The notes below the pieces were generated by a model that ran no database searches, had not been told where the DNA came from, and saw nothing but the letters and a program-made list of their open reading frames with translations. A stretch of 52,569 bases of DNA from a virus (lineage: Duplodnaviria; Caudoviricetes), in the IMG/VR virus record IMGVR_UViG_3300022918_000016, positions 1-52,569 of that record. One strand, written 5' to 3'. Below are positions 13,142 through 33,322 of the stretch, one piece after another. Position 1 is the stretch's first letter. Each line of letters begins with the position of its first letter. The translations under genes and the position numbers were made by a program.

Positions 13142-13366
13142 TTATTCTGCTTCTTTGAATTCGCAAACATATTCTTTCCCGGGCTTAAAAAATAATAATG
13201 CATCGGGATTTGTTATATGCATCTTTACAGAGGCATTTGGGGTATAAATGCTAAATGTTTTGTTTTCTTCCGAAGTATTTGTTACGGCAGAAAGATTAGC
13301 TTCTACATTGTTGTTTCCGTAATCTACAACAGAACCAACTTTAAATTTTGCTAAAAGTGTTTTCAT
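13142..13366 (-). CDS. Hypothetical phage protein with its own promoter (TAtaTTTG 13403-13396)
   Basis: AKFKV...ENKTF..YTP...I.NP....F.PGKEY pattern. Confidence 0.75.
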   Translation of the reverse strand: MKTLLAKFKVGSVVDYGNNNVEANLSAVTNTSEENKTFSIYTPNASVKMHITNPDALLFFKPGKEYVCEFKEAE

Positions 13367-14711: not shown

Positions 14712-15140
14712 TTAAATTCTGTGGGTTATTTTACCCATAACGAAAACTGTTATCGTACAGTAAATTACAATAGAGAACCATGCAAAATACTGCGCTGTAT
14801 CTATCCCAAATAAAATATAGTATTCATTGGTTAGCCACATAAAAATTAACCCAGCGTAGGATGTTTTACCTATCGTGTTAAACCTCCCGCTAAACATGAA
14901 TAAAAGAAACAGCGTAGCTAATGAGGTGTTAAAAAATAAAAAACCCTGTTCGTTAAAATTTTCATATAAATTATTTACAGGCTCGTTATTGAAATACGGA
15001 AATAGCCTGTATTTACAGTAGGCTAAATACCCTATCACATTACACATATAGATAACAAAAACAACAATATTAATATCTATTTTTGTTAAATAAAATAAGC
15101 AGGCGTAAACCTGCTTAAATATATTTTTTAAACGTTCCAT
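14712..15140 (-). CDS. Polytopic membrane protein
   Basis: About four hydrophobic segments. Confidence 0.65.
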   Translation of the reverse strand: MERLKNIFKQVYACLFYLTKIDINIVVFVIYMCNVIGYLAYCKYRLFPYFNNEPVNNLYENFNEQGFLFFNTSLATLFLLFMFSGRFNTIGKTSYAGLIFMWLTNEYYILFGIDTAQYFAWFSIVIYCTITVFVMGKITHRI

Positions 15141-23227: not shown

Positions 23228-23620
23228 ATGATAGAAATTAAATTTAGAGTATTTGATGTTGATTCATCAGAAATGCTGTTTACAGACTCAGATAACAACT
23301 ACCGCGATTGGTTCTTTGAATTTCAAGGTGGGTTTTTGAAATTATTTACACCTGAAGAAGATGATTTTGCTGAAGAAAGAGAAGCTGTATTCATGCAATA
23401 TACTGGCTTTGAAGATGCAGGAGGTATAGAACTATATGTTGATGATATTATCGAAGAGGATGGGAAGTTCTATATAATTGAATGGGACGAAAGTATGGGT
23501 ATGTTCCAATGTACAAATATTCATTCGTTAGACAACATTGCTTTACATGAGTTTGACGGTGTTAATACGGTATGGCATCAGGGTAATAAACACGAAAACC
23601 CTGAATTACTAACTACCTAA
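23228..23620 (+). CDS. YopX family protein
   Basis: EIKFR...MQYTG..D..G.E.Y..DI...GN.HENPELL. Confidence 0.85.
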   Translation: MIEIKFRVFDVDSSEMLFTDSDNNYRDWFFEFQGGFLKLFTPEEDDFAEEREAVFMQYTGFEDAGGIELYVDDIIEEDGKFYIIEWDESMGMFQCTNIHSLDNIALHEFDGVNTVWHQGNKHENPELLTT

Positions 23621-26336
23621 TCGCATACAAATTCAGCCACCCGCTAACCTCCTGAGCACTTACTGCCGCCCCGCTATCATTAATCCTAATACGGTTATAT
23701 AGCACAGGCGGCAGTATTCGTTTACTGTTATAATCCTTTAGGGTTACGTATCCTAAACCGTCTATACTGTACCTAAATCCATCTTCGTAACCAACTCCGT
23801 TTATTACCCTGGCGTTACCCTCTGCGATAACAACCACCTGAAACTGATTGTACTTTTCCTCAAACATACCTTTCATTACCCCACCAAATTCTTCGGGAGT
23901 TTCTGCGCCGAATATTAAACCCGTCCACTCCATATTTTTAGGATAACCCTGAATAATTAAACCGTCCTGGTCTAATGTTTCAATATAACCTCTACTTAGC
24001 TTCACGGCGGACTGCAAGGCGAAATATTCAGCAATATTCATCTGTAACTCGCACTCAAAGTTAAAACGCGTTAAAATCGCTCCTTTAGGGTAGAATGTTT
24101 CGCCTTCAGTTATTACAGGCTCGCTACCGAATTGCGTAATCGCATTTTTACCATACAGGTATTTAGTATTTTTAATCGGTAAAGGATTATTTAATAATAT
24201 CGTGGCTAACTCTGAATTGTAGTAATTTTCTAAAATACGCTGTTTCGTAAATCGTAAATTACCGAAATTATCGCCGTCATTTAATCCGCTTATTATTGTA
24301 AATCCTTCGTCAGTTCTTAATTTCAATGCTATAGAACTATCTATGATGTACGTGTATCTTGTATTTACATCAAGTAAATCGAAAAATTCACGCCCTGTAA
24401 TATCGCCTATAGGCTGCAGGGTTAAATCCTGCCTTGTAACGCCTGTAACTACGTAATTTCCTGCATTAGTGGTATTCAGTATTTTAAATATACTTCCTAC
24501 GACAATACCCAGCGTTACCCAGCTAAATGAATTATCATTTTTAAGACTTACAATCGGTATCGCGCCTGCCCTGGCAACGCTATGTATTAACTGTGATGTT
24601 TCGCTGCGTTCGCGTGTACCTGAAAACTGTGTAACATCTAATATCGCTATTTTATCATCATCCTGTGTGGCGGTATCATCAGTAGTTTCATTAGCTTTAT
24701 TCAGCATGTCCTGAATATAGAACGGATCGCGGATAAAACCTATGGTTATATCACGGGTATCAGCAACCATATCGTTAGGGATATAGTTTTCGCTTTCGCC
24801 ATGTACAATATCCAACGTGTTACCTGTAGTTGATTCTTTTTGGGAGGCGTAATTCGTGAACGAAATATTTACGGCGTTGCAGGTGGTGCGCTCATTTATT
24901 AATAAGCGCCATGTATCGTACTGCCTTACCGGTAACTCCGGAGTGTGGACGGTATATGTACCCATTCTAACGTTCCTGTAAAAATCCTCCCGTAACCCGA
25001 AAAATACAGTACCGTTATTTATCTGATAATCCCCGTTCAGCTCAGGTCGTATCTGTTTGTCTAAAATATCTTTCATAGATACATAGAAAGGCCTATCCAA
25101 ACCACGCATCAACTGCGCGTTGGTTATAAACTGGTCGTAAAACTCGCCGCCAAACTCAAAACGGGGCGCGCTAACCGGTAAACCTGAATTAGACAGCGTA
25201 ACATATTTTATAGCGTCTATGTAACGCACTGCGTCGATTATGCTGTTATACGCTACCTCGCTACCTTTAATCGTGAATTTTGACGGGTAAAATGTGTTTT
25301 TAGAAACGGCTATATCTGTACCTGCTGCGTGTATAAATACGAAGTAGAGGCATTCTCCCCTGTTTAAATCAGGTAACTGAATATCTGCTATAGTGCCGTT
25401 GTACTCATACGTTCTGCGGCTCGTATTAAGCACGCCTGTATCATATACAGTTATTCCGTTAGCGATATTAGCAGCTTTAAAATCATCGAAGCTTTCGCCG
25501 TAGACACCTTTAAATATTCTGCCGCGTATCTGCATGTTCGTAGCAGGCGGCGATTCGTTAGTCCACTCTGATTTAAGGTGTAGCTGCAAAGTCGCGGTTA
25601 AGCCGGTAAGATTTGAATCTGCCCTAAGAAACACGAAATTTTGCGGCGGTGTATTATAATCAGAGACGCTGTTACCGCCTGCCGTATCGGTTTCATTAAC
25701 CAAATTAGTTAATGAGGCATCAATATCGCCTTTAGTAATATTCTGTATAGCGTTAAAAAAACCTGGCAGTATAGTATTACCCTGTGGTCCTAATGGTTGA
25801 AATCCTAACGGCCTGTAACGCGATATAACTATTTCAGACGGATTAGTCCACTCCGATTCCTTAGTATAGGGCTTAGCAGGCATGTAAATTTTATACTTAG
25901 CGCATGGCGTTATAGGCTCGCCCTTCAAATTTACCGTAGAAAATAAATCTACAGTAGTTTCCATCGTTTCTTTAAACTTCGCTTCGGTGCTATCCTGAAT
26001 AACGGTAAACTCAAAGAATGTTTTACCATCCGTGTCAGGATCTATCATGTTTACGTTACCCAGCACAATAATACCATCGCCATAATCGATGCTTATTTTA
26101 ACTTTAGCCTGATGCGATTGTAATTTCCAGTTCAGTAATAATAAATCAAGGCAGCCATTCATTTTATCCGTTACCCGGTATTTAAAACCTGAATCCCCGG
26201 CTGACTGCGTATCTCTGCCTTTCCTGCCGTCATCCTGTTTTATGGAGAACGAAACAGCATCAGCCCCTTGCGGTTCTTCAATTTCACGCACGCCGTGACC
26301 GGAAGTTATAAAGTCGAGATATATTCTTAATGCCAT
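23613..26336 (-). CDS. Large tail tip / central tail protein
   Basis: 907-aa beta-rich ORF, next structural gene downstream of the tape measure. Confidence 0.7.
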   Translation of the reverse strand: MALRIYLDFITSGHGVREIEEPQGADAVSFSIKQDDGRKGRDTQSAGDSGFKYRVTDKMNGCLDLLLLNWKLQSHQAKVKISIDYGDGIIVLGNVNMIDPDTDGKTFFEFTVIQDSTEAKFKETMETTVDLFSTVNLKGEPITPCAKYKIYMPAKPYTKESEWTNPSEIVISRYRPLGFQPLGPQGNTILPGFFNAIQNITKGDIDASLTNLVNETDTAGGNSVSDYNTPPQNFVFLRADSNLTGLTATLQLHLKSEWTNESPPATNMQIRGRIFKGVYGESFDDFKAANIANGITVYDTGVLNTSRRTYEYNGTIADIQLPDLNRGECLYFVFIHAAGTDIAVSKNTFYPSKFTIKGSEVAYNSIIDAVRYIDAIKYVTLSNSGLPVSAPRFEFGGEFYDQFITNAQLMRGLDRPFYVSMKDILDKQIRPELNGDYQINNGTVFFGLREDFYRNVRMGTYTVHTPELPVRQYDTWRLLINERTTCNAVNISFTNYASQKESTTGNTLDIVHGESENYIPNDMVADTRDITIGFIRDPFYIQDMLNKANETTDDTATQDDDKIAILDVTQFSGTRERSETSQLIHSVARAGAIPIVSLKNDNSFSWVTLGIVVGSIFKILNTTNAGNYVVTGVTRQDLTLQPIGDITGREFFDLLDVNTRYTYIIDSSIALKLRTDEGFTIISGLNDGDNFGNLRFTKQRILENYYNSELATILLNNPLPIKNTKYLYGKNAITQFGSEPVITEGETFYPKGAILTRFNFECELQMNIAEYFALQSAVKLSRGYIETLDQDGLIIQGYPKNMEWTGLIFGAETPEEFGGVMKGMFEEKYNQFQVVVIAEGNARVINGVGYEDGFRYSIDGLGYVTLKDYNSKRILPPVLYNRIRINDSGAAVSAQEVSGWLNLYAIR

Positions 26337-26373
26337 GTGGTAAAAGTAATAAATTTATTTGTATGTTTGTAGT

Positions 26374-26456
26374 CTATTAAATGGGTTTGATAGGTCATAA
26401 TTTTGGTTCGGTTTTTTAGGGATACAGATATTTTTTAAATGTCTGTATTTTTTTTT
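26374..26456 (+). ncRNA. Candidate sRNA 2 (U-rich, contains GUCAUAAUUU)
   Basis: TAtgTTTG 26362-26369; terminator GATACAGATA/TGTCTGTATT plus T run at 26421-26456, with G-U pairs favouring the + strand; only a 12-codon ORF inside. Confidence 0.55.
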
Positions 26457-26491
26457 GTGAAATAATTAAATATAAGTTGTATGTTTGTGGC

Positions 26492-26572
26492 ACGGACAGC
26501 GACCCGTAACTAAAAACTTAACAATAGCCCTTTATTATACTGTCGCTGGTATTTTAGAGGGTTTATTATTTT
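26492..26572 (+). ncRNA. Structured 5' leader, kissing-loop motif copy 1
   Basis: ACGG-[ACAGCGAC]-CCGT hairpin; second hairpin with loop TGTCGCTG; promoter TAtgTTTG 26480-26487. Confidence 0.65.
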
Positions 26573-27199
26573 ATGAAAGTATTAAAAGTGTTGATTGCCT
26601 GTGAAGAAAGCCAGGCTGTTACGAAAGAGTTCAGAGCGTTAGGACATGAAGCTTTTAGCTGCGATATACTACCGTGCAGCGGTGGGCATCCCGAATGGCA
26701 CTTACAACAGGATGTAACCGAATTATTAAAACATGAGTGGGATTTAGTTATTGCATTTCCGCCTTGTACCCATTTAGCATGCTCAGGTTCCAGGCACTTT
26801 GCTAAAAAAATTGAAGACGGTAGGCAACAACAAGGTGTAGACTTTTTTATGTTATTTACTAATATTGATTGTCAGTATGTTGTGATAGAAAACCCTATAG
26901 GAGTTATGAGTTCAAAATACAGAAAACCTAACCAAATAATTCAACCATTTCAATACGGGCATCCATCTAAAAAATCTACTTGCTTATGGTTAAAAAATAC
27001 GCCATTACTCAAACCAACTAATATTGTTGAGCCTGAAATAATAACACTAAGTAATGGTAAGAAATTTTCTGCGGACTACATGAAAGGGGTAAAAAGAAGC
27101 AAAGCCGGTGAAAGTAGCGTAGAAAGGAGTAAGACTTATCCCGGCATCGCAAAAGCTATGGCAGAGCAATGGTCTGAATATATTTTATCTAAAATTTAA
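26573..27199 (+). CDS. DNA cytosine-C5 methyltransferase (short phage type)
   Basis: VLIACEES, AFPPCTHL, IENPIG, TCLWLK, RSKTYPGIA.AMA.QW. Confidence 0.8.
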   Translation: MKVLKVLIACEESQAVTKEFRALGHEAFSCDILPCSGGHPEWHLQQDVTELLKHEWDLVIAFPPCTHLACSGSRHFAKKIEDGRQQQGVDFFMLFTNIDCQYVVIENPIGVMSSKYRKPNQIIQPFQYGHPSKKSTCLWLKNTPLLKPTNIVEPEIITLSNGKKFSADYMKGVKRSKAGESSVERSKTYPGIAKAMAEQWSEYILSKI

Positions 27200-27204
27200 T
27201 TATC

Positions 27205-27459
27205 ATGGAAGATCAATACAAAAAGTACAGAGAATTCACGAAAGAGGAACGTGAATGGGTGAACAGGCTTAAGAAATTAATGAATGAAAAAGCGTGTGGC
27301 AATTTACTTATGTTCATTGGAAGTGGTAGTATGGTTATTTACACTACTCCAGGAGATTATAAAAGCAATCTTTATATGACCAGTGAAGGAGGAGTAGATC
27401 AATACGCTCCAAATTTTAATATAAATACTAAATGCGCCTGCGACGGTGGGGACTGGTAA
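27205..27459 (+). CDS. Hypothetical protein (C-terminal DGGDW)
   Basis: ORF in the operon. Confidence 0.7.
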   Translation: MEDQYKKYREFTKEEREWVNRLKKLMNEKACGNLLMFIGSGSMVIYTTPGDYKSNLYMTSEGGVDQYAPNFNINTKCACDGGDW

Positions 27460-27511
27460 ATAATTTTTCACAAAACCCTACTTCAATTAAAATAAATAAT
27501 TATATTTGCAA

Positions 27512-27605
27512 TGCAGACCGCTACCTGCACAAACTCATAAGTCTTGAATGACTAACAGAGAAACCTCATAGAATGCTGTAGCGGCTTTTATGGGGTTTTC
27601 TTTTT
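27512..27605 (+). ncRNA. Structured 5' leader / attenuator, kissing-loop motif copy 2
   Basis: TGCAG-[ACCGCTAC]-CTGCA hairpin; terminator-like hairpin with GTAGCGG in the loop plus U tract; promoter TAtaTTTG 27501-27508. Confidence 0.7.
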
Positions 27606-27618
27606 ATATTTTATTATT

Positions 27619-27882
27619 ATGAAAACAATATTTAAGCAGAAATTAAAAATAACAGATTTACAGGTTGTTGAATTGCCTGTAAATTCTAAGTTTTTAACTG
27701 TTCAAATGCAGGATGGAATTCCTTGCTTGTGGTATGAGCATAATTCAGATGCCGTAACCGATAAATTCAATATTTATACTTTCGGTACTGGACACGAAAT
27801 AACAACTGATAATAAAATCAGTTATCTGGCTACGTACCAATCAGGAATGTTTGTAGGACACGTTTATTACGCTAAACAATGA
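27619..27882 (+). CDS. Hypothetical phage protein
   Basis: L.VQMQ..IPCLW...GTGH...Y..TYQ...FVGHV pattern. Confidence 0.75.
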   Translation: MKTIFKQKLKITDLQVVELPVNSKFLTVQMQDGIPCLWYEHNSDAVTDKFNIYTFGTGHEITTDNKISYLATYQSGMFVGHVYYAKQ

Positions 27883-29753: not shown

Positions 29754-29785
29754 AAAAGCCAGTAATATTATGTTACTGGCTTTTT
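29754..29785. terminator. Bidirectional terminator
   Basis: AAAAGCCAGTAA-tattatg-TTACTGGCTTTT between convergent genes. Confidence 0.85.
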
Positions 29786-29797
29786 ACTTTTTATAAA

Positions 29798-32700
29798 TTA
29801 TTTAATCTTCCTCCCCTGAAAACTCGCTATCCTATTTTTATATTCGGTGCGTTGCCCTTGTCGTTCGCTGTAAGCTGAATATCCCTTAGCATCAAATGTA
29901 ACACCGTTTACAGGCATCTTAGCTAATGTTTTATCCATGATACGCTCCATATCCGATGCGCTAACCCCTTCGACGCGGTTCATCGCCACCGCAGGCAACC
30001 CGCTATTTAAAATACCGCTGCTGGCAATATCAGGATAAACCTGCGAACCTTTAGGTAAATCAATCAACGTGTTTTTATTTGGCGTTAATGCCATTTTGCC
30101 ATCAGGGTAACGGATAACCTCATGTTTGCCGCCATCCCCTACTAAGGCCTTGCCGCCTGGGTGGTAATCCGTACCTTCAGCATAAGCAGGAACAGGTTTA
30201 GACGCTATCAAACCGATTTGTATAGCTCCTAACGTACCTACTAATATTGATGCCGCTATATTAGGCAATGCTGCTACAACTGCGCTGGCAGTGTTTATAA
30301 TAGCGTTAAACAACGCTGTTTCTTTAGCTGCCTTCGCTTCACGTGTGCGTATTTCACGTTTCTTGTCTGCTAATTGTTTTTCGAGTTCTTCTTCGGCATC
30401 AGCATTGCCACCTGCGAATTTTTTACGTATCTCATATTCACGCTCAATATTCGTTAATTCAGCATCGAAACGCGCCTGGTTATTCTGTTGCATGAAATTA
30501 AATACCTCCTGAAATGTAGACAATGCTGTTGTACCGATAACTTTTAATTTCTCCCCGGCGGTTTGTGCCTGGTCAATCATTTTATCGAATGTACTGCCGG
30601 TCTTACTTTCGATTTCTCCGGCCGAATTTACAAACTGGTATGTTACCTGATCGGTAAATTTAGCCAGCGAGCTTAAACCCATATCGCTAAGGAAACCTGA
30701 TTTAATACTGTTGAATAATTCATCAGTAGCGGTTTTCATTTCATGGCGTAAATCTGCTACTTTTTGTAAACGTTCCGTTTCTGTATCTTTTAACGCCTGC
30801 TCATAACCTATTTGCTCTTTTAATAATTCATTTATCGCCTGGTTGTTTTCGATGTTAGGTTCTTGCAGTTTTATTTCTTCTATTTTAGCTTTAACCCGGT
30901 CTAAATCTATTTGCGTTAATTTATCAGCTCTGTCTAACGCTGCGTTATCCAAATCACGCATTTTATTAGCCAAATCGGTATATTGTTTCTCGGTGGTGCT
31001 ACCTGAAACGCTCGCCAGTAATGAATTACGTTCTGATGTATCGCCTAATCCTAAACGTCCCTGAGTATTACGTGCATTTTGCGCCTGTATATCCAGTAAT
31101 ACGCCTTGCAGCTTACGCGCCGATTCAATCGTTAGTTTCGTTTTGTCATACTCGTATTTTTCATCAATTCGTTTTTTCTTGATGATGTATTTATAGTTTA
31201 TTTCATCTAAATTAGCCTGCGTGGCTTTACCTTCTGAGATAGCTGTTTTATACGTTTCATTCTGGTTCTCGTTTTCAAGCTTATTTAAACGTATTTCTTC
31301 GTCATGCTCTAATTTCAATAACGCTTCTTTCTGGAAATAAAAATTATTTGCCGCAGCTAAACGGGTTTCATAATTTTTCTTGTCGTTATTCATTATTTCT
31401 TCTTCATCGGCAATATGATTTTCAGTATTTTGTCGTTGTAAATTATAGACTTCTTTCAGGTAATCGATGTCGGATTTTTGTTTCTTTGGTTTGCCTACAC
31501 CTGCATAATCCTGCTTAGGTAGCGGTTTCTTTAAAAAGTCGTAAGCTGCCTGTAATTGTCCTAATGAAGTTTTAGTAGTATTCAAACTTGCATCATATAG
31601 AGTATTTAATTTTTTAATCTGGGATTCTATTTCTCCATTTCCAAAACCACCTATATTACCAAATTCCGCCTTAAATGCATCATTCTTTTTTTCTAAAGCA
31701 ACGATCTGTTCGTTTATTGCGTCTCTTTCATCCCTTAACTCTTTTAATCGTTTTGGATTCTCAATTATTCTGTCTTTTGCCGCGTATTCAGCTAAATCTT
31801 GCTGTTGTTTAGTTAATTCTGCAAATCTTTTTTTATCATTAACAGCCTCTTTGTCTTTTACCGTAGCTAATTCTTTTAACTCTTTTAATTCCTGAGCATA
31901 GGCGGAATCTTCTATATACTTCAATTGTTCGTCCCTACGTTGTTCTTCTGATTTAGCTAAATCTGCCATTCCTTCGGCTGCGCCTTTTAAAAACTTAACC
32001 AATCCTGTTAAGCTTTTAGTGATTACGCTATCCCCTTCGCTTATCTGTTTTATTAAATTAGTCCACGCGTTACCTAAACGTGTAGTTTCTGCTGTAAGAT
32101 TCTCTACTCTATTCAGGTTTTCAACGCCGTAGGCTTTTTCTAACTCTGCCGCGAATGCCGGCAATACTTCGGCCGCCAATACTTTACCATCCTTTAGTAG
32201 CTTGTTTAACTGAATTTCTGTAACACCCATAGATTTAGCAAGAATGCCAAATGCACCAGGCAAACGTTCTGCGAGCTGCCCGCGTATCTCCTCTGCTTGT
32301 ACATTGCCTTTAGAAATCATTTGTTGCAAGGCTAAAAATGCACCCTGCTGCTGATCTACAGATAATCCCATTGCCCCGGCTGCTTTAGATACCGATTCAA
32401 ATATCCCGTTTATCTGTTCTGCTGTAATAGCCCCCGATTCAATAGCGTTTTTACTGGCGGCATAAAATCCAGTATAAGAACGCGTCAATCCTTTTATTTC
32501 TATACCGTAAGCCTCGGATATACGTTGCAAAAAAGCCTGTGATTGCCCGAATAATTCATTTGTCCCAAGTACTTGTTTTAACGCAAAATCAAGGGATTGT
32601 AATTCACGGGTAGTGTTGAATATGTCTTTAGATATTGCCGCAAACGCCTGCACGCCACCAACAACACCAAAAGCCATTAAGAGGTCTTTTAAGCCTCTTG

Positions 32701-33322
32701 CCGCCTGCATAGGATAATTACCTACATTACGGTTAAATCTACCCACAGCACGATCCGCTGCAAGCACTCGTGTGTTTAAAGCATCGAACTGGCGTTGTGC
32801 ATTTTGTAATTCACGGTTATACTGACGTTGTGTTTGCTCCCCGGTACGCCCACGCGCTATTAAATTTTGAACTGCACGGGCTGCAATATTTTGTTGTGCA
32901 GATAATCGTTCATAGGAATTAGCGAATGTAGAATTAGCCTGAGCCACCCTTGAAGCGTTAGCTGCCAGTAGACGTGTGTTAGTTATTTCCTCCTGTGTAC
33001 GCTGATTACCTGCAGCACGCGCCTGAGTTTGCCTTGTTATAGCTTGGTTAGTAGTATCTATACCTGCTCTTAATCTGTTTTGCAGGTCAATTTGTTGCTG
33101 TATCAACTGATTGTTAGCCGCTAAAACCGTATTCAACTGCGTAATCAGCCCTCGCGCCTGACTGGGTATCTTAATATTTTTAAAAGCATTATTCAGCGTG
33201 TTAGCCTGCGTAACAGCAAGCTGCAAGTCTTTAGTAAGCTGCGTAACGCCTTTAATGCCTTTATTAAGATCGGTTATCGCGCCTTTTTCTAAAATACCTA
33301 TAAATTCTCCGTTACTTGCCAT
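29798..33322 (-). CDS. Tail tape measure protein
   Basis: 1174 aa, helical, rich in Ala/Gln; QMISKG.VQAEE.RGQLAERLPG tape-measure motif. Confidence 0.92.
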   Translation of the reverse strand: MASNGEFIGILEKGAITDLNKGIKGVTQLTKDLQLAVTQANTLNNAFKNIKIPSQARGLITQLNTVLAANNQLIQQQIDLQNRLRAGIDTTNQAITRQTQARAAGNQRTQEEITNTRLLAANASRVAQANSTFANSYERLSAQQNIAARAVQNLIARGRTGEQTQRQYNRELQNAQRQFDALNTRVLAADRAVGRFNRNVGNYPMQAARGLKDLLMAFGVVGGVQAFAAISKDIFNTTRELQSLDFALKQVLGTNELFGQSQAFLQRISEAYGIEIKGLTRSYTGFYAASKNAIESGAITAEQINGIFESVSKAAGAMGLSVDQQQGAFLALQQMISKGNVQAEEIRGQLAERLPGAFGILAKSMGVTEIQLNKLLKDGKVLAAEVLPAFAAELEKAYGVENLNRVENLTAETTRLGNAWTNLIKQISEGDSVITKSLTGLVKFLKGAAEGMADLAKSEEQRRDEQLKYIEDSAYAQELKELKELATVKDKEAVNDKKRFAELTKQQQDLAEYAAKDRIIENPKRLKELRDERDAINEQIVALEKKNDAFKAEFGNIGGFGNGEIESQIKKLNTLYDASLNTTKTSLGQLQAAYDFLKKPLPKQDYAGVGKPKKQKSDIDYLKEVYNLQRQNTENHIADEEEIMNNDKKNYETRLAAANNFYFQKEALLKLEHDEEIRLNKLENENQNETYKTAISEGKATQANLDEINYKYIIKKKRIDEKYEYDKTKLTIESARKLQGVLLDIQAQNARNTQGRLGLGDTSERNSLLASVSGSTTEKQYTDLANKMRDLDNAALDRADKLTQIDLDRVKAKIEEIKLQEPNIENNQAINELLKEQIGYEQALKDTETERLQKVADLRHEMKTATDELFNSIKSGFLSDMGLSSLAKFTDQVTYQFVNSAGEIESKTGSTFDKMIDQAQTAGEKLKVIGTTALSTFQEVFNFMQQNNQARFDAELTNIEREYEIRKKFAGGNADAEEELEKQLADKKREIRTREAKAAKETALFNAIINTASAVVAALPNIAASILVGTLGAIQIGLIASKPVPAYAEGTDYHPGGKALVGDGGKHEVIRYPDGKMALTPNKNTLIDLPKGSQVYPDIASSGILNSGLPAVAMNRVEGVSASDMERIMDKTLAKMPVNGVTFDAKGYSAYSERQGQRTEYKNRIASFQGRKIK

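What the first reader, a model, noticed from the sequence alone, without database searches (positions are those of the whole stretch)
27501..27621. Kissing-loop leader RNA (copy 2): a 5' hairpin loop pairs with the loop of a terminator hairpin
Seen: immediately after promoter TAtaTTTG the transcript starts with TGCAG-[ACCGCTAC]-CTGCA (27512-27529). A long hairpin (about 27557-27601) plus U tract follows, and its loop carries GTAGCGG (27578-27584), the exact complement of CCGCTAC. The same architecture occurs 1 kb upstream (copy 1) with different stems and two compensatory double changes in the 7-bp loop-loop helix (C-c/a-GC-t/g-AC with GT-a/c-GC-g/t-G). Covariation within one genome is good evidence for a selected RNA tertiary structure. 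Inference: a phage attenuator or switch that gates downstream accessory genes, perhaps opened by a phage protein or a trans RNA. It is conceptually like P1 c4 / P4 CI control but acts in cis. I do not recognise it as a named family.
Basis: partly seen in the sequence, partly recalled or inferred. Interest (0 to 1): 0.85.

Follow-up and report, generated by a model that had tools for sequence, protein, structure and literature searches.

The report
Kissing-loop leader RNA of Bacteroidota phages
Just after a phage promoter lies a short structured RNA whose first hairpin loop base-pairs with the loop of its own terminator hairpin; the same design, with co-varying loops, recurs in several phages and matches no described RNA family.

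Summary
A Bacteroidota-type -7 box (27501-27508) puts the predicted start at hairpin H1 (27512-27529). Its loop segment CCGCUAC (27518-27524) is the exact complement of GUAGCGG (27578-27584) at the apex of a long hairpin, H2, which is followed by a U tract and then the ATG at 27619.

Inside this one genome the match is weak evidence, because two-loop 7-mer matches are about as common in shuffled sequence. The real support comes from relatives. I found seven leader types (A-F) in two unrelated phage lineages. All have H1 at the predicted +1, a terminator-like H2, and 7-9 perfect Watson-Crick pairs between the two loops. That is 51 of 51 pairs, with compensatory changes among homologues. Five types were found without selecting on complementarity. 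Of 147 chance matches to the promoter/H1 pattern, 1 reached 7 pairs. A covariance model built from the other lineage finds copy 2. Rfam has no match.

The leaders precede unrelated genes and sit at mosaic breakpoints.

The structure is well supported. The function is inferred: most likely a portable promoter-leader cassette that attenuates transcription, with a kissing-locked 5' end. A switch or a trans-acting role is not excluded.

The parts
27501..27508 (+). Copy 2 (type B): Bacteroidota-type -7 promoter box TATATTTG. Predicted transcription start at 27513.
   Evidence: sequence. The box lies at -12 to -5 according to PMC9723704 (passage read). The same 16 nt (box plus CAATGCAG) recur in phage G005.
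27512..27529 (+). H1: 5'-terminal hairpin (stem GCAG/CUGC in the RNA, 8-nt loop ACCGCUAC). The kissing segment is CCGCUAC, 27518-27524.
   Evidence: A27529G in two relatives keeps U-G pairing.
27540..27553 (+). M: small middle hairpin AGUC-UUGAAU-GACU, shared in position with types D, E and F.
   Evidence: (covariance-model alignment).
27557..27603 (+). H2: long terminator-like hairpin. Its apex carries GUAGCGG (27578-27584), the complement of the H1 loop segment. The core stem is 27564-27573 / 27586-27595.
   Evidence: It contains G-U pairs, and the sense strand folds 7 kcal/mol better than the reverse complement.
27596..27605 (+). U tract UUUUCUUUUU directly after the G-rich base of H2 (partly overlapping the weak outer pairs of the predicted stem).
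27619..27882 (+). Downstream gene of copy 2: DUF7352 protein (87 aa).
26480..26487 (+). Copy 1 (type A): -7 box TATGTTTG. Predicted start at 26492.
26492..26507 (+). Copy 1 H1: ACGG-[ACAGCGAC]-CCGU. Kissing segment CAGCGAC, 26497-26503.
26526..26563 (+). Copy 1 H2: terminator-like hairpin with GUCGCUG (26542-26548) at its apex, then UUUAUUAUUUU and the ATG at 26573.
26573..27199 (+). Downstream gene of copy 1: DNA methyltransferase (208 aa).
   Evidence: phrog_757, E 7.5e-68.
26362..26456 (+). Upstream unit P1-T1: a second TATGTTTG box (26362-26369), about 80 nt, then hairpin 26422-26447 and T9. This is a promoter / short RNA / terminator unit in tandem with copy 1. It has no loop-loop complementarity.
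   Evidence: Conserved in G1, G2 and G4.
29754..29784 (.). Two-way terminator-like hairpin that closes the + strand island against the tape-measure gene (29798-33322, - strand).

Best explanation
Copy 2 (27501-27618) and copy 1 (26480-26572) belong to an undescribed family of promoter-proximal phage RNAs, about 75-100 nt long.

Anatomy: transcription from a Bacteroidota sigma-A type promoter starts at the first base of a short hairpin, H1. In types B, D, E and F a small middle hairpin follows. The RNA ends in a long G+C-based hairpin with a U tract (H2, an intrinsic terminator by anatomy) a few bases before the start codon. Seven to nine nucleotides of the H1 loop pair with the H2 apical loop (kissing loops) while both stems stay formed. 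This closes the RNA into a compact rod with a base-paired 5' end.

Most likely function (inferred): a portable expression cassette. H2 stops most transcripts, both from the cassette's own promoter and from upstream, so a short stable RNA is released and only read-through reaches the gene (attenuator and insulator). The kiss locks the otherwise weak 4-bp H1, so the 5' end has no single-stranded overhang. That would protect the short RNA and the read-through mRNA from 5'-end-dependent decay and fix the fold. Different loop sequences keep leaders in one genome from cross-pairing.

Shown: the anatomy, the covariation, the strand, the modular spread. Inferred: the transcription start, termination, the effect of the kiss.
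For: 1. Seven leader types (A, B in the window; C, D, E1, E2, F in relatives). The longest Watson-Crick run between nt 1-30 and the rest of the leader is always the H1 loop against the H2 apex: 7, 7, 9, 7, 7, 9, 8 bp. At the minimal helix lengths this is 51 of 51 Watson-Crick pairs, with no G-U.

2. Homologues D/E1/E2 differ by compensatory changes. Kissing position 6 is U-A, G-C or A-U. Position 7 is C-G or G-C. H1 stem position 3 is A-U, G-C or C-G. A and B differ at 2 of 7 kissing pairs. In-register cross-type pairing is 5 of 7 (A x B), 6 of 7 (D x E1) and 1 of 7 between these two groups.

3. Five types were found blind to complementarity. C came from homology of a neighbouring gene. D came from a pattern with the loop left as N8. 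E1, E2 and F came from homology to D's downstream protein.

4. Chance matches to the same patterns: 0 of 13, 1 of 119 and 0 of 15 reach 7 pairs.

5. A model built only from D/E finds F (47.1 bits), B' (32.7 bits) and window 27501-27616 (29.9 bits; E 2e-4 to 8e-4).

6. In all 7 types H1 begins 4 nt after the -7 box, which is the predicted +1.

7. The sense strand folds 3.6-9 kcal/mol better than its complement in 7 of 7 types.

8. The two-hairpin fold with free loops is at or near the minimum energy. Adding the duplex (-10.5 to -14.8 kcal/mol) makes it the best state.

9. The same leader stands before different genes: B before DUF7352 or a 78-aa protein; C before an HNH endonuclease or an SPFH protein. 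Homology breakpoints lie at 26490-26495, 27457 and 27616-27625. One contig joins T1 directly to the B promoter.

10. Ordinary leaders in this phage are about 20-25 nt and unstructured.
Against: No RNA data exist. No RNA run holds the phage, so the start site, termination and abundance are all predictions.

Two strong terminators in tandem (E, then F) stand before a replication-type gene. That fits regulated read-through better than a fixed leak.

Because the kiss coexists with H2, nothing shows that it affects termination or decay at all.

In type C a nested long-range fold that frees the 3' arm of H2 (an antiterminator-like state) equals or beats the two-hairpin fold (-28.3 vs -22.0 kcal/mol before adding the duplex). 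In copy 2 the kiss must first open a 4-bp apical helix.

All examples come from a few metagenomes and two lineages. A and C are not found by the covariance model, so their homology to B/D/E/F is unproven.

I could not run the formal pair-count tool or R-scape. MAFFT and model alignments put the loops out of register, so the counts are from my own script.
Confidence: 0.5

Rival explanations
1. Regulated switch. Read-through of H2 is conditional and the kiss is the controlled element. A phage or host factor, or the folding order during transcription, decides between a kissing/terminator state and a read-through state, and so times the downstream genes.
For: Strong terminators (14-18 bp stems, U5-U8) sit directly before genes that must be expressed, including two in tandem before a replication-type gene. 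Type C has a competing fold in which the long-range helix encloses a hairpin that sequesters the 5' arm of H2. HK022 put RNA is a precedent for a promoter-proximal double hairpin that makes polymerase resistant to terminators (PMC8632103, passage read).
Against: An antiterminator alternative is seen only in type C. In A and B the nested alternative is 9 kcal/mol worse. In the other six types the kiss uses only loop nucleotides and is compatible with a complete H2. No conserved loop or bulge sequence suggests a ligand or protein site. No antiterminator gene was identified, although only 30 of the window's reading frames were scanned.
Confidence: 0.2
2. Trans-acting small RNA with type-specific loops. 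The terminated leader is the product. Through the same loops it pairs with nascent leaders of its own type (or with another target) and controls their fate, like P4 CI RNA or plasmid countertranscripts. The loop types are specificity classes.
For: Unit E is followed by another promoter, not by a gene, yet keeps a perfect kiss with compensatory changes (E1 vs E2). Leaders within one genome always differ in loop sequence (A/B, C'/B', E/F). In P4, RNA-RNA pairing inside the leader causes premature termination before the replication genes (PMC4825925, passage read). StxS shows that a phage leader ended at a promoter-proximal terminator can act as a small RNA (PMC7547250, abstract as listed).
Against: The two loops of one molecule are each other's best partner and are linked by 18-35 nt, so pairing within the molecule should win. 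E in L174-L176 looks like a leader displaced by insertion of F plus a new 5' gene part. No other target was sought in a meaningful way, since 7-mers recur by chance.
Confidence: 0.15
3. Recombination cassette only. The conserved intergenic blocks matter as shared sequence for module exchange, like the PeSL cassettes of T4-type phages, and the hairpins are ordinary promoter and terminator parts.
For: Breakpoints lie at cassette borders, and the same leader stands before different genes. PeSLs are promoter plus stem-loop terminator cassettes that mediate such shuffling (PMC2839356, abstract and section 13 read; PMC4122927, abstract).
Against: This does not explain why the H1 and H2 loops stay complementary through seven different sequences, or why H1 always starts at the predicted +1.
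Confidence: 0.1
4. Chance, or a DNA-level feature: an operator palindrome at the start site plus an unrelated terminator, or inverted repeats made by template switching.
For: Within one genome such matches are as common as in shuffles. The kissing helices contain no G-U pair, as DNA inverted repeats would.
Against: Five of five blind replicates are positive, against 1 of 147 chance matches. The H1 'palindromes' differ between types, so no single protein could bind them all. The stems hold 3-4 G-U pairs each, and the sense strand folds better in 7 of 7 types.
Confidence: 0.05

Closest known systems
PeSL cassettes (promoter-early stem-loops) of T4-type phages
   Same: Small intergenic cassettes that combine a strong promoter and a stem-loop terminator. 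They stand before variable genes of unknown function and mark the points where modules are exchanged between related phages (PMC2839356 section 13).
   Different: PeSL stem-loops lie at or before the start site, so a cassette's own transcripts escape them. Here H2 lies 45-60 nt after the start. PeSLs have sigma-70 promoters and no second hairpin. No loop-loop pairing is described in the abstracts or in section 13, which is all I read.
Phage P4 immunity (CI RNA with seqA and seqC) and P1/P7 c4 RNA
   Same: Complementary segments inside one leader transcript, linked to premature termination ahead of replication genes (P4; PMC4825925 passage). Specificity types with compensating changes are known for P1/P7; that point is recalled, not checked.
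   Different: CI and c4 are processed out of the transcript and act as antisense RNAs on linear targets. Here two hairpin loops of one short RNA pair with each other, next to an intrinsic terminator. There is no Rfam match at E up to 10 in 26300-27700.
HK022 put RNA
   Same: A promoter-proximal structured RNA of about 65 nt with two hairpins, present in two copies per phage genome, acting in cis on transcription (PMC8632103 passage).
   Different: put acts on terminators further downstream and is not itself a terminator. No loop-loop helix is described in the passage I read. There is no sequence relation.
Lambdoid PR'-tR' leader (6S RNA, StxS)
   Same: An always-active promoter with a terminator immediately downstream, yielding a short RNA and requiring read-through for the genes behind it (PMC7547250, abstract as listed).
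   Different: There the read-through depends on the Q protein. No kissing structure is involved, and the host and promoter type differ.
Kissing-loop control RNAs (ColE1 RNA I/II, R1 CopA/CopT, pT181 attenuation), guanidine-II riboswitch, phi29 pRNA
   Same: Loop-loop helices of 6-7 bp between hairpins as the functional contact. pRNA loops also co-vary between phages (PMC4201828, abstract as listed). The remaining points are recalled.
   Different: In those systems the kiss is between two molecules, or (guanidine-II) uses conserved ACGR loops that bind a ligand. Here the kiss is within one RNA, the loops are not conserved in sequence, and one partner is the RNA's own terminator loop.

Membership tests
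Any Rfam 15 family (including C4 antisense RNA, pistol, twister, hammerhead, mini-ykkC, pRNA) | Score at or above the family's gathering threshold | tested here: not met
   0 matches in the whole window. The best match in 26300-27700 at E up to 10 scores 19.5 bits against a threshold of 40, for an unrelated lncRNA model. In five relatives' loci at E up to 0.1 only tRNA matches and one tmRNA-like match appear, none at a leader.
PeSL cassettes of T4-type phages | Composite promoter plus stem-loop terminator in intergenic regions before variable genes | tested here: met
PeSL cassettes of T4-type phages | Cassettes mark recombination junctions between related phages | tested here: met
   Breakpoints at 26490-26495, 27457 and 27616-27625. 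A contig joins T1 to the B promoter.
PeSL cassettes of T4-type phages | Stem-loop placed at or before the transcription start; sigma-70 type -35/-10 promoter | tested here: not met
   H2 lies after the predicted start. The promoter is TAnnTTTG.
P4 CI / P1 c4 type leader antisense control | Complementary segments within the leader | tested here: met
P4 CI / P1 c4 type leader antisense control | Small RNA processed from the leader that acts in trans and causes termination or blocks translation | not testable with these tools
   No RNA data.
HK022 put-type antiterminator RNA | Nascent double hairpin that renders the transcribing polymerase resistant to terminators | not testable with these tools
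   Only the anatomy is comparable.
Intrinsic (factor-independent) terminator / attenuator | G+C-based stem immediately followed by a U tract, on the sense strand, within the 5' leader | tested here: met
   7 of 7 types. The simple consensus scan did not list H2 of either copy, because its loop limit is 3-8 nt and it counts continuous stems.
Guanidine-II (mini-ykkC) riboswitch | Two hairpins with conserved ACGR loops | tested here: not met
   The loops differ in all seven types. No Rfam hit.

The most novel reading that the evidence does not exclude
The leaders form a protein-free, type-specific RNA control system. The terminated leader RNA accumulates. Through the same two loops it kisses nascent leaders of its own type, competing with the pairing inside the nascent RNA, and so sets how many polymerases read into the replication or accessory genes. 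That would be a timer or immunity device whose loop 'types' (A-F) are orthogonal specificity classes. It would be comparable in logic to P4 CI, P1/P7 c4 and plasmid countertranscripts, but built into an intrinsic terminator and found in Bacteroidota phages.
Probability: 0.15. Interest if true: 0.85.

Novelty: new variant of a known kind. Interest (0 to 1): 0.72.

Why it matters
Gene control in Bacteroidota phages is almost unexplored, and their hosts lack Shine-Dalgarno-led initiation, Hfq and ProQ (recalled). This is a compact RNA with an unusually clean covariation signal for a tertiary contact: 51 of 51 Watson-Crick pairs across seven loop sequences. It is attached to a consensus promoter and an intrinsic terminator, and it moves between phages as a cassette.

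It gives a directly testable model for how a 5' hairpin and a terminator loop cooperate. The test is loop mutants with compensatory rescue.

It may also be a source of orthogonal expression parts for Bacteroides or Flavobacterium engineering, and a marker of module boundaries in phage genome mosaics.

Searches of the held paper library found no description of such an element. That is not proof of absence in print.

Tried and rejected

- No RNA holder is listed for the stretch. The four runs laid were DNA contigs and say nothing about expression.

- The third 'copy' at 15078 is a terminator of - strand genes plus a chance 7-mer inside coding sequence. The hit at 13171 is a convergent terminator region.

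- The methyltransferase homologue in Cellulophaga phage phi46:3 and the replication-gene homologue in Elizabethkingia phage TCUEAP2 lie inside operons without a leader.

- More distant relatives of the 426-aa island protein (L029, L030) have other intergenic elements and no kissing leader.

- A protein scan of genome contigs with the 426-aa alignment found no relative.

- blastn of the E+F region against cultured phages found no match.

- Model R2 on 5 Bacteroidota genomes and on 151 Bacteroidales genomes gave one genome with two weak hits. These are a different promoter-proximal hairpin with no H2 and no kiss. Only 25 candidates per genome were scored, so this says little.

- The exact pattern in 401 Bacteroidales genomes gave 15 places, none a member.

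- L180 and the three extra hits (L032, L033, L035) are chance matches.

- MAFFT and covariance-model alignments put the loops out of register.

- No conserved leader peptide. Short frames exist in B and E2 only, from reading the sequences.

- The P1-T1 RNA has no complement to the leader loops, and its variant does not track the leader type.

- Paper supplements were not consulted.

Full report
**Setting.** The window is a whole 52.6-kb phage contig (37% G+C). It carries terminase, portal, tape-measure, helicase, primase and SSB genes. Its promoters are of the Bacteroidota TAnnTTTG type. The finding lies in a 3.4-kb island of + strand genes (26.3-29.8 kb), set between two - strand tail genes: a 907-aa gene at 23613-26336 and the tape-measure gene at 29798-33322. 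A two-way terminator-like hairpin at 29754-29784 closes the island.

**The observation.**
- The -7 box TATATTTG is at 27501-27508.
- Hairpin H1, TGCAG-[ACCGCTAC]-CTGCA, is at 27512-27529.
- A long hairpin at 27557-27603 is followed by UUUUCUUUUU.
- GTAGCGG at 27578-27584 is the exact complement of the loop segment 27518-27524.
- The ATG is at 27619.

The RNA fold is better than all 200 shuffles (z -4.2). It also shows a small middle hairpin, M, at 27540-27553.

Copy 1 has the same plan. The box is at 26480-26487. H1, ACGG-[ACAGCGAC]-CCGT, is at 26492-26507. GTCGCTG at 26542-26548 lies in the apical loop of hairpin 26526-26563. The ATG is at 26573.

In Flavobacterium the sigma-A box occupies -12 to -5 (PMC9723704, passage read). 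By that rule the predicted start is the first base of H1 in both copies.

Two caveats apply. In the minimum-energy fold of copy 2, four of the seven nucleotides sit in a 4-bp apical helix that must open for the kiss. That costs 6.2 kcal/mol, against about -10.6 for the duplex. And within this one genome the match is not above chance:
- A generic two-loop 7-mer search gave 14 hits, against 3-21 in shuffles.
- 20 of 60 TAnnTTTG boxes have some downstream complement of 7 nt or more, against 19 for a reversed-sequence control.
- Two apparent extra copies are ordinary terminators plus chance matches.

**Relatives in the same clade.** Protein and pattern searches found four related contigs: G1, G2 (the same phage type as L027), G4, and the more distant G3.
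- G1 carries leader A with one change, in the spacer.
- G4 carries leader B with one change (A27529G, which keeps U-G pairing), but before a different gene, a 78-aa protein.
- At the position of leader A, G2 and G4 carry a third type, C. Its H1 is GUUAC-[CGUCUCACUAUAC]-GUAAC. Its H2 is an 8-bp G+C-based stem with an upper stem and a 10-nt loop holding AGUGAGACG, the exact complement of nine loop nucleotides of H1.
- C stands before an HNH endonuclease in G2 and before an SPFH protein in G4.

C was reached through a neighbouring gene, not through complementarity.

blastn breakpoints between the window and these contigs fall at the leader borders: 26490-26495 (the start of H1), 27457 (the stop codon of the preceding gene) and 27616-27625 (the start codon). 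A metagenome contig joins the upstream terminator T1 directly to the promoter of leader B. The leaders therefore travel as cassettes and are not tied to a particular gene.

**A second lineage.** I searched with a pattern that fixed the box and the H1 stem of copy 2 but left the loop as N8. It hit one unrelated complete phage, G005 (40.1 kb, 51% G+C). Its leader D is:
- H1: GCAG-[UGUCGCUC]-CUGC
- a middle hairpin
- H2: a 14-bp stem with loop A-GAGCGAC, which is again the perfect 7-nt complement
- then U8 and the ATG

Relatives of its downstream gene carry E1 (loops GUCGCGC / GCGCGAC) or E2 (GUCGCAG / CUGCGAC). In tandem behind E they carry a further unit, F (GUAGCGC / GCGCUAC), and then a replication-organiser-like gene.

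D, E1 and E2 align base for base and differ by compensatory changes:
- in the kiss, position 6 is U-A, G-C or A-U, and position 7 is C-G or G-C
- in the H1 stem, position 3 is A-U, G-C or C-G

A covariance model built only from D/E finds F (47.1 bits), B' (32.7 bits) and window 27501-27616 (29.9 bits; E 2e-4 to 8e-4). It does not find A or C. Copy 2 is therefore a detectable homologue of the second lineage. The shared plan is H1, M, H2.

**Statistics.** One uniform rule was applied to all types: the longest Watson-Crick run between nt 1-30 of the predicted transcript and the rest of the leader. In all 7 types it picks out exactly the H1 loop and the H2 apex, with runs of 7, 7, 9, 7, 7, 9 and 8. 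At the minimal helix lengths this makes 51 of 51 Watson-Crick pairs.

In-register cross-type pairing is 5 of 7 (A x B), 6 of 7 (D x E1) and 1 of 7 between these two groups.

| Test | Result |
|---|---|
| Shuffled H1 loop reaches the observed run, type A | 2151 of 200000 |
| Same, type B | 1218 of 200000 |
| Same, type C | 255 of 200000 |
| Chance pattern matches in genome contigs reaching 7 pairs | 0 of 13 |
| Chance pattern matches in viral contigs reaching 7 pairs | 1 of 119 (a G+C-rich coding region) |
| Chance pattern matches in 401 Bacteroidales genomes reaching 7 pairs | 0 of 15 |

Five types (C, D, E1, E2, F) were blind tests, and all five are positive.

The sense strand folds 3.6-9 kcal/mol better than its complement in 7 of 7 types, and the stems hold 3-4 G-U pairs each. 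This is an RNA feature of the promoter-sense strand.

I could not use the pair-count tool or R-scape, because every alignment put the loops out of register.

**What it is.** It is a family of promoter-proximal RNAs with these features:
- H1 (4-5 bp, with a loop of one free nucleotide plus seven paired ones in most types) sits exactly at the predicted 5' end.
- A linker of 18-35 nt follows, with or without hairpin M.
- H2 is a long hairpin with a G+C base and a U tract, which is the anatomy of an intrinsic terminator.
- The start codon lies 8-25 nt further on.

The two-hairpin fold with free loops is at or near the minimum energy. Adding the duplex (-10.5 to -14.8 kcal/mol) makes it the most stable state in all types. 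Only type C has a competitive nested alternative that would free the 3' arm of H2. Ordinary leaders in this phage are about 20-25 nt and unstructured. Rfam 15 has no match, here or in the relatives.

**How it most likely works.** What follows is inference. The kiss uses loop nucleotides only and both stems persist, so it probably does not prevent termination. I read the unit as a portable expression cassette.
- H2 ends most transcripts, from the cassette's own promoter and from upstream. It therefore insulates the gene and lets only read-through express it.
- The kiss locks the weak H1, so the RNA has no single-stranded 5' end. That is the known requirement for protection from 5'-end-dependent decay (recalled from work on E. 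coli ompA and B. subtilis 5' stabilisers).
- Different loop sequences keep leaders within one genome from cross-pairing.

Against a purely constitutive role: two strong terminators in tandem stand before a replication-type gene. It would equally suit a trans or immunity role of the released RNA, as for P4 CI RNA (PMC4825925). None of these can be separated without RNA data, and no RNA run holds this phage.

**Comparison with known systems.**
- As mobile promoter-terminator cassettes at module borders, the leaders work like the PeSLs of T4-type phages (PMC2839356, abstract and section 13; PMC4122927, abstract). But PeSL stem-loops lie before the start site, and no second hairpin or loop pairing appears in what I read.
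- As a promoter followed at once by a terminator, they resemble the lambdoid PR'-tR' leader (PMC7547250, abstract as listed).
- As internal leader complementarity ahead of replication genes, they resemble P4 immunity.
- As a 7-bp loop-loop helix, they resemble plasmid antisense systems and phi29 pRNA, where the kiss is between molecules.

I file the element under none of these families.

Two paper searches for kissing loops combined with terminators, leaders or phage small RNAs listed nothing like it.

**Verdict.** The functional part remains open. It is a new structured RNA family of Bacteroidota phages, a new variant of the leader / attenuator / cassette kind.

Noticed in passing
window 26362-26456: A second consensus box (TATGTTTG, 26362-26369) is followed after about 80 nt by a perfect hairpin (26422-26447) and T9. 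This looks like a stand-alone short RNA unit in tandem with leader A. The promoter and terminator are conserved in G1, G2 and G4, but the middle part differs between window/G4 and G1/G2. No conserved reading frame.
   Followed up: partly
L174 790-1041 (also L175, L176): Two complete promoter / kissing-leader / terminator units (E, then F) stand in tandem before one gene. The ATG after E looks like the remnant of the gene start seen in G005, so F plus a new 5' gene part seems to have been inserted at the leader border.
   Followed up: partly
L030 7860-8070 and L029 795-985: More distant relatives carry a different conserved, highly structured intergenic block. It has a palindromic AGAATATATT / AATATATTCT pair around two hairpins, a terminator and a TATATTTG box. 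Possibly another regulatory cassette.
   Followed up: no
G124 (a Bacteroidales genome), loci L186, L191, L193-L198: Eight copies of one promoter-proximal element: TATATTTG-GAAT-GCAGCGGCAGAGCCGC, and about 45 nt later GGTGCAGAGCACCGTAA. This is a repeated leader or mobile-element end unrelated to the kissing leaders.
   Followed up: no
L036 114-242, 338-401, 1021-1092 (- strand): Phage G005 carries one clear tRNA gene (56.8 bits), a borderline tRNA match, and a tmRNA-like match below threshold (23.5 bits against 47).
   Followed up: no
window 27529, and record 10 of run X4: A27529G (U-A to U-G at the outermost H1 pair) is shared by G4 and by contigs of two other runs. One 198-nt contig places leader B directly behind T1, which is a third arrangement of the island.
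   Followed up: partly
window 23613-26336 vs G1/G2: The 907-aa tail gene is only 54% identical in protein sequence between the window and G1/G2. Yet the adjoining non-coding block (P1, T1, the second promoter) is nearly identical. So the regulatory region is either much better conserved than its neighbours or was recently exchanged.
   Followed up: partly
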